A DNA stretch of 63,262 nt, counting the filler, from Streblomastix strix (lineage: Eukaryota): NCBI GenBank assembly GCA_008636045.1. It is 3 parts of 3 records of this genome, joined end to end, with 100 filler letters (N's around TTAATTAATTAA, not from the genome) between each part and the next. Parts side by side here need not be neighbours in the genome. Positions count along the whole stretch, not along the records: positions 42,286 to 63,262 come from SNRW01000402.1; 2 more parts are not named here. The stretch is one strand, 5' to 3'. A model generated the notes under the pieces. That model made no database searches. It saw nothing but the letters and a program-made list of their open reading frames with translations, and had not been told where the DNA came from. Position numbers and translations under genes: made by a program. Positions 42,559 through 48,500 of this stretch are shown here, one piece after another (within the stretch, counting starts at the first letter, position 1; each line of letters begins with the position of its first letter).

Positions 42559-45500
42559 ATGACTCACAACAACATATCAGAATAATTTGAATGGTTATAG
42601 AAATAATAGAACCCCTATTGGTTACATTGGTAGACATAAATAAGTACATTTTAGAATAAATAAATAAAGGATTAAACAGACAATTTGACTCCTATTCAGG
42701 GAATCAATGAAATAATTAATTCTTCAGAATATCAGAAGATTATCGATAGAATGAAAACCTGTAATAGGAAAGCTTCATTTGAATAAGAGTTTGCTCTTTT
42801 CTTATTATTACAATATTTTACTTGATTTTATTGTGAATAGCCCTATGAAAGCACTCAAAAATACCACAAACTAATAAATTTAATAATAGGAAATTTTAAA
42901 AAGTCGAACAAAAAATGAGGTTTAGAATTCTACTTTATCTTCCACATAATCATAATTTAAAGCTACTTCCATACAACCCCAGTTTTAAACAACTTCCGCT
43001 TAACTATCATTTTAACCAAAATACTAGTCAATTCAACAATCATTATAATCATCTCAATTAAAAGTACTTAATCTTTAACAAGCGAACAACAAATCTGAAA
43101 TTAATAATAAGAATTTTTCTTTTATTGGTGAAACTGTTCAACTTCTTAACTCATCTGTTGATTAATTTCTTGGATAATTAAAAGAAGGTTAATTATAACT
43201 AGGTCAAAATGACTTTTAAACTCAATTGGATCAACTAAAAAGTAAAATGAATGAGTTGTGCGAAGTTCTTACTTTATAATCATCAAAAAATTCTTATTAA
43301 TCTACATCACATAATAATAATTAGTCAATGTCCGAGAATGGAAATTCAACATTACATTCAAATAATTTATTATTTCCTTAGATATAAACTTACTAAAATT
43401 AGTAGAATTTATAAGAATAATAATAAATACCATTTTAACAAAAATTCAACTAATATTCAAATAAATAAACTCCTTCTCTTCACATATCTTAATTATTACC
43501 ATAATATTCATCATCTTCTTCTTCTTCTTCATCATCATCATCATTTAATATATAAGAAGATATTACTGGAGTGATGAATCAATATGAATAAGCCTAAGAA
43601 TCTGAATATAATGAAAATAATGGAAATATAATTAATAACTATAATGGACATAATGGAGGTTTTTAAGGTAAACAAATTATGAATACAAATAAAATTGAAA
43701 TATAATAATAAGAAAATAGAACTATTTTAAATAATATTATGAAAGAAAAGAATATAAATGATATAAATAGCAATTCTGAATCAAGATCGAATAATGAAAT
43801 AAGATGAAATTTTGATAATTAAAACAAAATTAATACAAATATAAAATAAGATTTATGTAATGACAGTGAATTTTCTTTTGATTCATAATAGCAATATTTA
43901 ACATCAGTTGATAATGATACAACTAATTAAAAAGATAGATTTTAATAATAAAATTAGATTGGAAGTACAATTCCATTAGAATAGCAATTGGATATGAACG
44001 AAATAATTCAAATTAATAGATTTAATTCAAATAATTAAATTAAATAATTGAATTAATCAAATAATTAATAAATAATATATAATAAAGAAATAAATAACTA
44101 GTAAATAAGTAATATTGGAAATGGAGATGATTTCGATAATGAAGATACAAATACGTAATAAATATAGAATAATGAAGGTTGTACAGACAATAATAATTAT
44201 ATTTAATAAGGAATAAATGATGGAGGATAAAATACAGCTACTATCTGGATGGGTGAATTTCCATGGACATAAATTCTGTATTAAAAATTAAGAGAAGTAT
44301 TTGGACATAGAACATTTAGAGAGAATTAGTTAGCAATAATTAATGCAATATTATCAAATAAAGATTGTTTTGTATTAATGCCAACAGGAGGAGGAAAGTC
44401 TTTATGTTATTAATTACCTGGAGTAATGTTACCTGGATTAACAGTAGTTGTATCTCCATTGATATCATTGATATAAGATTAAGTAGAATAGTTAAGAGCC
44501 TTAAGTGTAGAAGCTGATTTTCTTTCCTCATAGCAAGATCCGGAGACATCTTGACACATTATGAGAGATTTATAATAAGATCCTCCTTAAATTAAACTTC
44601 TTTATGTTACTCCTGAAAAGATTGCATAAAGTGATTTATTTTATAAAAGATTGTAATATCTGTATTCAAAATAACTTCTTAGTTTAGTTGTTATAGATGA
44701 AGCACATTGTGTTTCTTAATGGGGACATGATTTCAGACCTGACTATAGAAGACTCAGTATATTCAAAACAACTTTCCCCAATGTTCCTCTTGTTGCACTT
44801 ACTGCTACAGCCACATAGGATGTGTTGTAAGACTGCTTAAGGCATTTATGTGTTAGATAGGTATATTTATTTATTTAGATATATTAAACTAAACCTATTA
44901 TATTTTCACTTCTAGTAATATTATATTCTTCTTCATTTTATTTTTGTTAAATATATTTAGGTTGAAGTGTTTACACAATCATTTAATAGGACTAATCTAA
45001 GTTATGAAGTTAGAAAGAAGAATAAATAAACATTAGAAGAAATATCAGAATTAATCTAAGGCAAATATAGAGGGTAAAGTGGGATTATTTATTGTCTTGC
45101 CAGAAAAGAATGTGAAGAAGTTGCATAATATTTATAAAAAGAGCATAAAATAAAGGCAGAATTCTATCACGCTAATATGCAATAAGATGAAAGGGCATAA
45201 ACATAAAGAAAATGGACAATGGGGGATACTGATGTTATTGTTGCAACTATTGCATTTGGAATGGGAATAAACAAGGCTGATGTCAGATTTGTTATTCATT
45301 ACGCACTCCCTAAATCTTTAGAAGGGTATTATTAGGTATTTAAAATCAGTGTTTATGATTAATTTTTTGAATTTAGACATATTTTATATTATCATAATTT
45401 ACTTATTTGTGTATTATAATAGGAAAGTGGACGAGCTGGAAGAGATGGATTGTAATCTGACTGCATTCTTTATTATTGGCCAAGAGACAGAGGAAGAATT

Positions 45501-48500
45501 CATTGGTTACTGTCATAAGGGATGAATTAATAATAAGGATATAATCAGTAATAACAGTAAATATCAGTTGAAAAGGGGCTATTTGATGTGAATTAAGTTG
45601 TAGCATATTGTGAGAATTAACATACATGTAGAAGATAAATGATGTTAGCATTCTTTAATGAATAATTTAATCCTTTGTTGTGTAATGGAACATGCGATAA
45701 TTGTAGAGACAGAGACAATTATGAATGGGAAGAGGTTGATTATTCAAAACATGCAAGGAATATTATATAGATGGGTACATGTCCAATTTATTGATAAATA
45801 TTATTTTATGCAATTAACACTTCTAATTTTTATTCTTATTCTAATTCTAATTCTATATATCTAATAAATAGTATTATCACTTCCGAGATAAAAGGAAAGC
45901 TTAAAAGATATAGTTGATATGTATAAAGGAGATTATGCACCTTCTGGAGCTGCATTTGGTAATAAAGATAAATAAGGAGGAAGAAATAAATAAAACAAGA
46001 ATTATAATAATGAATAAAAACCAACTAATTTTGGATTGGGAAAGGGGTTATAAAAGAAATAAGTAGAAGAATGTGTTAGACTAATGGTTTTAAGTTAATT
46101 CTTAGATGAAGAATTAATAAATACATCGTCTGGAAATATTATTGTTTTACTGCGGCCAGGTTAGTTTTTATTGAAAATCTATGTATATATTTATATTTAT
46201 ATTTATATTTATATTTACATTTAAATTAATATTTATATTTATATTTAAATTAATATTAATATTAATATCAATATTTTTGTTAGGAATAGAGCATCAAGTA
46301 TTAATAAGTGGAGAAGTTAGAGTCTCAACTCAGATAAAAAAGAAATTTAAAACAAATAAATAAAAAGAAAGAGAAATGAAAGATAAAGATAACAATAGTG
46401 GAATGTAAATGAATACAGATTCTGATAATAATGTTAATACAAATTAGAAGAAAGAAAGAAGCAATGAAAGAGGAAAGAATAAAACACAATTAAAAGCAAA
46501 TGCACTTTAACGTGGGAAGAATAAAGTGAAAGAGAAGCAGAAATAAGGAAGAATAAAATCTTCTTCTTCTTCTCCATCAATCTCTCCATCTGCTTCACCT
46601 TCTAACAAAAGCATTAATTCTCCATTTTCTAATTCAATGCATTCTCTTACTACTCCAAAAATGGTCTAAACTTCATTAGATTATAATTAATAGAAGAATA
46701 GTACCTTTAAAAATAATTTTTCATCTTCACTTCCATCAGCTTTATAATCATCATCTTCTTCTCTATTAAATAAAATCCATAGCAAATTATTGCATCAATA
46801 ATAAAATACTAAATAATAAAATTAATAGTAAAATTATTATTATTAATAATAATAATAATCTCTTTCACCTTCTTTAATAATTAAAGATTAAGAATAAGCC
46901 TTAATTTGTAATGATAACATTAACGATGAATTTGAATTTAGTCCATAATATATATCAAATAACATTAATAAAGACTATAACTAATAATCCCAAGATTAAT
47001 TAAGTAATAAAGACTTTATTATTACACAATAAGATTACATTTCTATTGATGATACAAATGAAGATTAATCTGATTTACCATTATTTAGTAATGATAGTTT
47101 TGGAGAAATGAATAAAAAAGGAGTCAATGGAATAGGATGATCTTCTGATACATGGAATACGTTAATGAATAATATTAAGAGTGGATAAGATAATTAGAAT
47201 GAACATATAAGAAAGAAAAGGAATAAAAATAAAGATATTGATACAATGAAATTTGAAAGTGAAGAATAAATTGAATCTGATTATACGATTAATAAAGATA
47301 ATAGTAATAGTGATGATGATGATGATTATAATGAAAAAAAGAAGAAGAAAGTGAAAAAAAAGAAGAAAGGAAGTTCAAGATCAAGATCAAAGAGTAGCAG
47401 GTCTCCATCTCCAAGTATTATTACAAAAGAAAAGAAAGAAAAATAATAAAGAAGAAATAAATAGAACAATTCTTAATCACTAAATCAATTTGATGAAAGT
47501 AGTAATTCAATTAAGTAAAACATTGAATAATTGAACTAATTAAATGAAACTGAAAAAGAAAACACAGAAACACTCCCACAAAGAAGGAATTTTGACGATA
47601 TTCAATTATAACAAGATAACAAGATTAATTAATATGAATAAAATGTATAAGAAAATGAGAATGAATGGGATAATGAAGAAGAATTGAAAATTATTCGTGA
47701 AATGGAAAAAGATGACAACAAATTTATTTTGAAATATAATAGTGAAGATCCTTTTATAATTCTAAATAAAAAGAAACGATAGAGAGAATAAGAATAATAT
47801 GAAAATATTGAAGAAGATGGAAAAGGATAAAAAAGATATTAAATTGACTTTGAAAATTAAAGTGAAGAATAAGAAAATTGTAATGAATAACGTAGTGAAA
47901 TGATTAAAGATGAATAAAGAAATTAAGTTAATTCCAAATAATAAACTTCAATTCTTTCTGAAGCAATTAAATAAAATTATTCATCATCATCTTTCTCTTT
48001 ATCTTAAAGATTATAATCTCAATCTCCTGTGAAACAAATAACATCAATTGGATCTTTATTTGCTAAATTAAAATAATCCACAATCCAAACTCCTCACGAT
48101 TAATCATCATCATTCATTTAAATTGATTCAACATCATCACCAATTGATAATAGGAAAGTTATGAAGAAGATATTAATTAATGAAGACATAAAAGAAAATG
48201 AAACAAATGAAAATGTTAAATTTGAAAATTTTGAATCAGTTTAATAATTTGATTAAAAGGAATCCTATTCTGATATTAATAGCTAGAATAACAAACAAGG
48301 ATAAGAATATTTATAAGCCTCGAACACATCTTAATCTTCTTCTTCTTCTCCGTAATTATAACCATTCGTGATTGATTGCATTCTTGAAGCTATATAGAAA
48401 ACAATTCACGCAATAGCTAAGCTTGCTCATCTTGCTCCATATCAACTTGGTTTCAATATTTAAGCTCAAAGAGAAATGATTGAAAAAGATACTAGAGACA

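What the first reader, a model, noticed from the sequence alone, without database searches (positions are those of the whole stretch)
43805..47140. Three in-frame TGA codons inside an otherwise intact Sgs1/BLM helicase: candidate ambiguous (stop/sense) UGA where UGA is the only stop codon
Seen: TGA at 43805 (EIR*NFD), 44552 (DPETS*HIMRDL, between helicase motif Ia and YVTPE) and 47138 (GIG*SSD). Each is flanked by in-frame coding sequence. The N-terminal [13 protein letters not shown] motif lies upstream of all three and the HRDC domain lies downstream of all three. I found no frameshift, and all helicase motifs and splice sites are intact, unlike the real pseudogenes in contig 1. Established: codes with no dedicated stop codon, where termination depends on position near the mRNA 3' end, are known from Condylostoma, Parduczia, Blastocrithidia and Amoebophrya. 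The oxymonad TAR=Gln code is described with UGA as a plain stop. Inference: internal UGA may be read through here, which would be an undescribed ambiguous code or a readthrough/editing system.
Basis: partly seen in the sequence, partly recalled or inferred. Interest (0 to 1): 0.92.

Follow-up and report, generated by a model that had tools for sequence, protein, structure and literature searches.

The report
Oxymonad stop codon doubling as sense
A termite-gut protist whose only stop codon is TGA carries three TGAs inside an otherwise well-kept DNA-repair helicase gene and two inside a second gene, which likely means it sometimes reads TGA as an amino acid (possibly arginine), a trick reported in ciliates but, in the papers searched, not in this group.

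Summary
The three TGAs are real and in frame in a 2054-codon Sgs1/BLM gene of a TAR=Gln oxymonad (likely Streblomastix). A second gene (WDR64-like, contig 2) has two more: 5 TGA in 11,053 codons of 8 genes, 0.045%, close to Condylostoma's 0.042%. The helicase shows no decay: 0 of 93 near-invariant columns altered, a spliced 5' piece exists, and 8 of 8 assignable allelic differences are synonymous. Neutral decay would need 69-122 substitutions. The one alignable TGA column has Trp in 0 of 322 homologues and Arg in the nearest oxymonad, so the usual UGA=Trp does not fit. A Gln/Gln/Arg code is already reported, computationally, in spirotrich ciliates. Best reading (0.58): rare, position-dependent stop/sense UGA, Arg the leading but unproven residue. 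Not excluded: CpG-type nonsense mutations in two recently dead genes. 'No frameshift' is weak evidence, because a decayed retroelement here also keeps frame across TGAs. No RNA, raw reads or independent sample covered any TGA, and no tRNA or eRF1 could be seen.

The parts
42559..49183 (+). Sgs1/BLM-type RecQ helicase gene, 6 exons (42559-42788, 42841-44860, 44961-45335, 45423-45774, 45872-46159, 46284-49183), 2054 codons in the TAR=Gln code
   Evidence: Gene model; best homologue Blattamonas nauphoetae SGS1, 60% over the core; intron 1 seen spliced in a contig of run X3
42559..42597 (+). Conserved N-terminal motif of Sgs1/BLM-like proteins (Top3-binding role recalled, not tested)
   Evidence: 24 of 324 homologue N-termini score >=30 vs 1 of 324 internal controls
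43805..43807 (+). In-frame TGA 1 (codon 399, EIR*NFD), low-complexity region
   Evidence: same letters in the X1 contig; the gene's only other R-x-NFD has Arg at x
44552..44554 (+). In-frame TGA 2 (codon 648, ETS*HIM) inside the helicase ATPase domain, variable polar column
   Evidence: Trp 0 of 322 homologues; in 106 non-redundant ones K18 R17 Q11 N10; Blattamonas has Arg; human BLM has Thr; same letters in the X1 contig
47138..47140 (+). In-frame TGA 3 (codon 1374, GIG*SSD), low-complexity region
   Evidence: not alignable, not covered by reads
44321..44824 (+). DEAD/DEAH domain, split by TGA 2
   Evidence: PF00270, E 1e-26
45033..46116 (+). Helicase_C, RecQ zinc-binding and RQC domains (exons 3-5)
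   Evidence: PF00271 E 1.5e-18, PF16124 E 6e-15; PF09382 E 0.001
48395..48565 (+). Divergent HRDC-like domain, downstream of all three TGAs
   Evidence: Custom HMM 9.3 bits; no Pfam hit
49181..49348 (.). Terminal TGA of the helicase, a 162-nt gap, and the terminal TGA of the convergent TmcB-like gene; AATAAA about 66 nt after the helicase stop
25809..33735 (+). Second gene with in-frame TGAs: WDR64-like WD40 protein, 2542 codons, introns 26044-26104, 26176-26231, 26357-26415, 28027-28148
   Evidence: One frame with only two internal TGA; WD40 Pfam hits; WDR64 among 7 hits
26001..26003 (+). In-frame TGA 4 (codon 65, MKL*QYF), in what looks like the entering helix of an EF hand (consensus recalled; no tool hit)
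   Evidence: no EF-hand hit
27032..27034 (+). In-frame TGA 5 (codon 350, TFE*RVE)
   Evidence: no plausible intron removes it (read)

Best explanation
This TAR=Gln oxymonad has five in-frame TGAs in two otherwise intact genes, and it likely reads UGA as an amino acid when the codon lies far from the mRNA end while still using it as its only stop, with arginine the most likely residue. Shown: the codons, the intact helicase, the splicing of its 5' part, the synonymous-only allelic differences, the lack of Trp at the alignable column. Inferred: the genes make full-length protein; a near-cognate tRNA (tRNA-Arg with a first-position mismatch, the same step by which tRNA-Gln reads UAR) or a UCA-anticodon tRNA outcompetes a UGA-only eRF1 in mid-message; termination works where poly(A)/PABP is close, as proposed for Condylostoma. 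The codon is rare and sits at tolerant positions of long genes, as expected if decoding is imperfect. Given readthrough, I put Arg near 0.6, Gln/Cys/mixed near 0.3 and Trp near 0.1.
For: Five internal TGA in 11,053 codons of 8 modelled genes, 0.045% (95% range 0.015-0.106%), against 0.042% in Condylostoma and 0.120% in Parduczia and <=0.011% in a non-ambiguous control ciliate. 0 of 93 columns conserved in >=95% of 193 homologues are altered; at >=90%, 3 of 131 (homologue mean 3.9). All 5 differences between the window and the near-identical X1 and X3 contigs, and 3 of 3 assignable ones from X2, are synonymous; 5 of the 8 lie downstream of TGA1. Under seven mutation spectra three TGAs need 69-122 neutral substitutions, predicting 4.7-9.1 amino-acid changes in the 635 bases X3 covers; 0 seen (P 0.0001-0.009). 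The X1 contig differs from the window at two silent sites yet shares TGA1 and TGA2. No intact near-identical copy is among the best 150, 120 and 120 hits. Internal TGAs lie 681-2478 codons before the true stop and 3' gaps are 162 and 211 nt. For Arg: Blattamonas has Arg at TGA2, Trp is absent, neighbour context disfavours Gln (0.5% of random sets of five Gln sites reach the observed score), yeast inserts Trp, Cys or Arg at UGA, and a Gln/Gln/Arg code is reported in ciliates.
Against: No RNA, raw reads or independent sample covers any TGA: X3 ends at 43280 and no listed X2 piece spans a site (371 pieces and 67 difference rows were not shown). Only 1 of 5 sites is alignable, and its column is variable (K18 R17 Q11 N10 of 106; Gln leads with 104 of 322 before redundancy removal). 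Context does not separate Arg from Gly or Trp. None of 11 conserved Arg columns carries TGA (AGA 7, AGG 2, CGA 1, TTA 1). Six of 8 genes (6457 codons, 33 CGA) have no internal TGA; the chance of five landing in two or fewer genes is 0.06. A CpG-only mutation model is not excluded by the conserved columns (1.0 change expected, P 0.37). The retroelement remnant shows that decay here gives TGAs without frameshifts. In my coding-flank scan of 2764 TGA triplets the five sites rank 2, 4, 22, 27 and 32. No tRNA gene is in the window and eRF1 was not seen.
Confidence: 0.58

Rival explanations
1. Ordinary nonsense mutations, mostly CGA to TGA at hypermutable CpG sites, fixed in two recently dead or dispensable genes of a small-population symbiont; UGA is a plain stop.
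For: CGA>TGA explains an Arg-like signal with no code change (41-68% of new TGAs under 10-30x CpG rates with AT bias). CpG is depleted (observed/expected 0.49-0.77). TGAs cluster in 2 of 8 genes. Contig 1 is full of decayed elements that hold TGAs in frame. In-frame stops in pseudogenes are a known source of false recoding calls.
Against: No amino-acid change among 8 assignable allelic differences and none at 93 near-invariant columns. Even at 30x CpG rates 4.7 changes are expected in the X3 stretch and 0 are seen (P 0.009). None of the 8 differences is a CpG transition. Needs three hits in one gene and two in another with almost no other damage.
Confidence: 0.23
2. The TGAs are damage or amplification errors (C>T or G>A) of a few-cell sample that became the consensus.
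For: Only X1, a possible source of the window, covers TGA1 and TGA2, and only as contigs, which drop rare variants. Both CGA>TGA and TGG>TGA are deamination-type changes.
Against: The rate needed in this gene (3 of 24 target codons) predicts 11 changes at the 93 near-invariant columns; 0 seen. The window-wide rate predicts 2.8 (P 0.06). Two assemblies that differ at silent sites agree on both TGAs.
Confidence: 0.08
3. RNA editing removes the stops, either U-to-C (UGA to CGA, Arg) or A-to-I (UGA to UGG, Trp).
For: U-to-C would give Arg, which fits TGA2. One of the three X3 differences is TAG to CAG.
Against: That swap is 1 of 29 TAR codons in the stretch and sits beside a G>A and a T>A difference, so it looks allelic. 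A-to-I gives Trp, absent at TGA2. I know of no such nuclear editing in metamonads (recalled, not searched).
Confidence: 0.07
4. The UGAs are read as selenocysteine through a 3' SECIS element.
For: A selenocysteine elongation factor is listed for S. strix.
Against: Cys is in 1 of 322 homologues at TGA2. No Rfam hit in the window. None of 4 loose SECIS-like matches lies behind either gene.
Confidence: 0.02

Closest known systems
Gln/Gln/Arg code of spirotrich ciliates (Uronychia, Stylonychia, Sterkiella, Tetmemena, Paraurostyla, Uroleptopsis; Chen et al. 2023, PMC10089648, sections 5 and 8 read)
   Same: TAR=Gln background, UGA found inside coding regions, Arg the residue that fits; several TGAs in one gene (five in a Uronychia tubulin ligase).
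   Different: There it rests on 987 TGAs and aligned Arg columns in Uronychia; here on 5 TGAs and one variable column. Different supergroup (Metamonada). That report is itself computational, and about half of the sites had allele frequency above 90%.
Ambiguous codes of Condylostoma magnum, Parduczia and karyorelicts (PMC4967479; bioRxiv 10.1101/2022.04.12.488043; passages read)
   Same: UAR=Gln; in Parduczia and karyorelicts UGA is the main or only stop and also a sense codon; low UGA usage (0.042-0.120%); short 3' ends; 10.5-76.9% of karyorelict transcripts carry one (here 2 of 8 genes).
   Different: They insert Trp at conserved Trp columns, shown by mass spectrometry and ribosome profiling in Condylostoma. 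Here Trp is absent at the alignable site and both conserved Trp columns use TGG.
Described oxymonad code of Streblomastix strix, TAR=Gln (as summarised in PMC13002328 and PMC5304391, passages read; Keeling and Leander 2003 not read)
   Same: TAA and TAG at 6 of 7 conserved Gln columns; all 7 genes with a modelled 3' end stop at TGA.
   Different: Internal UGA is not mentioned: 'TGA' and 'UGA' occur 0 times in the 2026 oxymonad transcriptome paper.
In-frame UGA/UAG at Arg columns in Trentepohliales chloroplasts (PMC8692980, passages read)
   Same: UGA proposed to stand for Arg while still ending genes.
   Different: Organellar, bacterial-type release factors, UAG included.
Sgs1/BLM RecQ helicases
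   Same: N-terminal motif, DEAD, Helicase_C, zinc-binding, RQC and HRDC-like domains in order; human BLM is the best solved-structure match.
   Different: Long Gln/Asn/Ser-rich insertions, divergent HRDC, three internal TGAs.

Membership tests
Ambiguous stop/sense codes (Condylostoma/Parduczia type) | The same codon ends genes and occurs in frame inside them | tested here: met
   7 of 7 modelled 3' ends are TGA; 5 internal TGA in 2 of 8 genes
Ambiguous stop/sense codes (Condylostoma/Parduczia type) | Genes with the internal codon are under purifying selection | tested here: met
   Helicase only: 0 of 93 near-invariant columns altered, 8 of 8 allelic differences silent; the WD40 gene was not testable
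Ambiguous stop/sense codes (Condylostoma/Parduczia type) | Internal UGA at conserved Trp columns | tested here: not met
   Trp in 0 of 322 homologues at TGA2; one site only
Ambiguous stop/sense codes (Condylostoma/Parduczia type) | Internal stops depleted near the true stop; short 3' UTRs | tested here: inconclusive
   All 5 lie 681 or more codons upstream, gaps 162 and 211 nt; too few sites, and no poly(A) site seen
Ambiguous stop/sense codes (Condylostoma/Parduczia type) | The codon stands in mRNA and is translated through (RNA reads, ribosome profiling, mass spectrometry) | not testable with these tools
   The spliced X3 contig ends before TGA1
Ambiguous stop/sense codes (Condylostoma/Parduczia type) | A cognate or altered near-cognate tRNA and altered eRF1 | not testable with these tools
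   No genome held; no tRNA in the window
Gln/Gln/Arg code (spirotrich ciliates) | TAA and TAG read as Gln | tested here: met
   6 of 7 conserved Gln columns use TAR; TAG/CAG allelic swap
Gln/Gln/Arg code (spirotrich ciliates) | In-frame TGA aligns with Arg across many sites | tested here: inconclusive
   Arg in the nearest relative and 17 of 106 non-redundant homologues at one site; Lys 18, Gln 11; 0 of 11 conserved Arg columns use TGA
Pseudogene | Loss of constraint: amino-acid changes at conserved sites and among alleles | tested here: not met
Selenoprotein | UGA at a Cys column plus a SECIS element | tested here: not met
   Cys 1 of 322; no SECIS
Sgs1/BLM RecQ helicase | N-terminal motif, SF2 core, zinc-binding, RQC, HRDC | tested here: met
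   RQC and HRDC are weak matches

The most novel reading that the evidence does not exclude
An amitochondriate oxymonad has no dedicated stop codon: UAA and UAG mean Gln, and UGA means Arg in mid-message, stop near the poly(A) tail and selenocysteine in selenoproteins. This would be the first ambiguous code in Metamonada and an independent origin of Gln/Gln/Arg, pointing to first-position C/U blindness (YAR=Gln, YGA=Arg) as a repeated route of code change.
Probability: 0.35. Interest if true: 0.9.

Novelty: new member of a known kind. Interest (0 to 1): 0.7.

Why it matters
Ambiguous codes are known from a few ciliates, Blastocrithidia and Amoebophrya. One in an oxymonad would add a further supergroup and give an independent test of the idea that termination is set by distance to the poly(A) tail. 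If the residue is Arg, it would back a Gln/Gln/Arg code that so far rests on one computational study, by a route other than the shortened tRNA-Trp. In practice, proteomes predicted with table 6 would be split at such codons in perhaps a quarter of long genes (2 of 8 here), which affects gene-loss claims in oxymonads. Public data can settle it.

Tried and rejected
No whole genome is held, so no genome-wide count, tRNA or eRF1 search was possible. No RNA holder was listed; this is no evidence on expression. X2, X3 and X4 give no listed piece over TGA1 or TGA2. Two scans of the JGI collection found nothing: a degenerate pattern around TGA2 and a SPRY-like family query (166 pattern matches, none confirmed). 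No Monocercomonoides or Streblomastix orthologue is among the best 120 hits. The WD40 search gave 7 distant hits, and the 4 whose N-termini I aligned do not align usefully at TGA4; Pfam and PDB gave no EF-hand hit. Small introns that would remove a TGA: none plausible on reading the sequence, and my intron-aware gene finder kept all three helicase TGAs and TGA5 in frame. Nine difference rows at 45269-45308 were left out of the synonymous count because they come from piles of divergent contigs; 3 of the 9 change a residue, and two unassigned differences of X2 record 11 could be among them. Candidates at 11005 (-) and 20617 (+) scored high but lie in decayed regions and were not counted. Two small genes (near 4781-5270 and 39560-40330) were not in the 8-gene count. 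'No frameshift' was dropped as an argument. The S. strix genome paper is not held.
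Full report
Setting. The window is three contigs joined by N linkers (1-21075, 21176-42185, 42286-63262), about 26% GC, with GT-AG introns of 52-124 bases. TAA and TAG mean Gln: they fill 6 of 7 conserved Gln columns of the helicase core. The best named homologue of the helicase is Blattamonas nauphoetae SGS1, and the runs that hold the DNA are labelled termite gut. 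From these three facts I infer an oxymonad, likely Streblomastix, the named oxymonad with this code (passages of PMC13002328). No whole genome is held.

The observation. TGA stands in frame at 43805, 44552 and 47138. Five introns give one frame of 2054 codons from ATG 42559 to TGA 49181-49183, with TGA at codons 399, 648 and 1374. The conserved N-terminal motif lies before all three (24 of 324 homologue N-termini match, 1 of 324 controls). TGA2 splits the DEAD domain. Helicase_C, zinc-binding, RQC and a divergent HRDC follow. A stop at codon 399 would leave no helicase.

A second gene. My gene finder and a reading of the sequence found two more in-frame TGAs, at 26001 and 27032, in a 2542-codon WDR64-like gene on contig 2. 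Across 8 modelled genes there are 5 internal TGA in 11,053 codons, 0.045% (95% range 0.015-0.106%); six genes have none, and clustering in two or fewer genes has a chance of 0.06. Published UGA usage is 0.042% in Condylostoma and 0.120% in Parduczia (passages of PMC4967479); a non-ambiguous control ciliate had at most 0.011% (passages of the karyorelict preprint). TGG is far commoner than TGA here (99 to 5) although A-ending codons dominate (TAA 698, TAG 145), so TGA is not a free Trp synonym.

Are the letters real? A contig of run X1 spans 43552-46173 at depth 44.8 and differs from the window only at 45575 and 45578, so it shares TGA1 and TGA2. X1 may be the source of the window and these are contigs, so this excludes a plain assembly slip but not a sample-level error. 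A deamination artefact at the rate this gene needs would change about 11 of the near-invariant positions; none is changed. At the window-wide rate 2.8 are expected (P 0.06). TGA3, TGA4 and TGA5 were not covered by any read comparison.

Is the gene alive? A 635-base contig of run X3 (kind not on record) joins 42788 to 42841 across the predicted GT-AG intron, which X1, X2 and X4 do not show; it is likely cDNA, and it ends at 43280, before TGA1. Its 3 differences, X1's 2, and 3 assignable ones of 8 in four near-identical X2 pieces are all synonymous; five lie downstream of TGA1 and none is a CpG transition. Against 193 full-length cores (of 239 tested) the protein deviates at 0 of 93 columns conserved in 95% or more, and at 3 of 131 conserved in 90% or more (homologue mean 3.9). 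Three TGAs by neutral drift need 69-122 substitutions under seven spectra, predicting 4.7-9.1 amino-acid changes in the X3 stretch; 0 are seen. If instead all haplotypes share a dead gene, five of five silent differences has P 0.0004-0.002. What survives is a narrow model in which CpG sites alone mutate; the conserved columns cannot exclude it (P 0.37).

Which residue? Only TGA2 aligns. Trp occurs in 0 of 322 aligned homologues (of 324), Cys in 1. After removing redundancy at 70%, 106 sequences give K18, R17, Q11, N10, S9; before it, plant sequences make Gln the commonest. Blattamonas has Arg and human BLM Thr. The helicase's only other R-x-NFD has Arg at x. A neighbour-context score over the five sites disfavours Gln (0.5% of random Gln sets reach it) but does not separate Arg, Gly and Trp. 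TGA4 falls where EF hands usually have Arg or Lys, but that consensus is recalled and no tool confirmed the EF hand. None of 11 conserved Arg columns uses TGA. Arg is therefore the leading guess, not a result, and it is also what CGA to TGA mutation would mimic.

Mechanism. Inferred: a UGA-only eRF1 loses to a tRNA in mid-message and wins near the poly(A) tail, as proposed for Condylostoma. The geometry fits: internal TGAs lie 681-2478 codons upstream and the gaps to the convergent stops are 162 and 211 bases. In yeast UGA readthrough inserts Trp, Cys or Arg, and UAR readthrough inserts Gln, Tyr or Lys (passages of PMC4150775), so Arg at UGA would parallel Gln at UAR through a first-position mismatch. 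With three sites in series, readthrough must be efficient to yield protein. Selenocysteine is unlikely: a SelB is listed for S. strix (supplements of PMC10703272, 11 files searched, one cut), but there is no Cys column and no SECIS.

Comparison with what is known. Chen et al. 2023 report TAA, TAG and TGA as Gln, Gln and Arg in seven spirotrich ciliates, with 987 coding TGAs in Uronychia setigera (sections 5 and 8 read; passages); Streblomastix appears there only in a reference. UGA at Arg columns is also reported in Trentepohliales chloroplasts (passages). The feature works like an ambiguous code; it fails the Trp test of the Condylostoma/Parduczia type and is inconclusive for the Gln/Gln/Arg type. 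Eight literature searches and passages of PMC13002328, PMC10703272, PMC5304391, PMC8629427 and PMC11687900 showed no report of sense UGA in oxymonads; subscription papers, including Keeling and Leander 2003 and the S. strix genome paper, were not seen. PMC6394959 (Amoebophrya) was seen as a search listing only.

Verdict. Stop/sense UGA is the best explanation (0.58), recent CpG-type nonsense mutation the main rival (0.23), artefact 0.08, editing 0.07, selenocysteine 0.02. If true it is a known kind of code in a new supergroup. Interest 0.7, because existing public reads can decide it.

Noticed in passing
window 7900-10900 (-): Decayed retroelement with RT and RNase H-like domains and a downstream ORF that I take for a tyrosine recombinase (DIRS-like, recalled); five in-frame TGAs without frameshift inside its two frames, one directly after a TGG codon.
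   Followed up: partly
window 49346-56500 (-): Long membrane protein gene with a TmcB TPR hit (E 1e-9), about 2200 codons, no internal TGA, convergent with the helicase.
   Followed up: partly
window 33947-38170 (-): About 1400-codon multi-pass membrane protein in one frame, no significant Pfam hit; ends in a tandem TGATGA.
   Followed up: no
window 25413-25620 and 38436-38642: A 208-base repeat, 77% identical, in opposite orientation at two intergenic places of contig 2; possibly a small mobile element.
   Followed up: no
window 57514-59388 (+) and 59650-62386 (+): An LMBR1-like membrane protein gene (name recalled; no Pfam hit on the exons tested) followed by a protein kinase gene ending in CCVIL, a possible prenylation motif (recalled).
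   Followed up: no
window 6082-7140 (+) and 18500-20900: Fragments of SPRY-like, kinase-like and armadillo-like repeat families (names recalled), broken and overlapping on both strands.
   Followed up: no
window 3-3968 (+): Open frame of over 1300 codons without TGA and without a Pfam hit, cut at the contig start.
   Followed up: no
run X1, record 5: A 3040-base contig about 80-89% alike over three helicase motifs, with an intron at about the position of intron 3: another RecQ gene in the same sample, paralogue or other organism unknown.
   Followed up: no
window 41250-42185: Decayed coding-like stretch with several TGAs on both strands at the end of contig 2; origin not determined.
   Followed up: no
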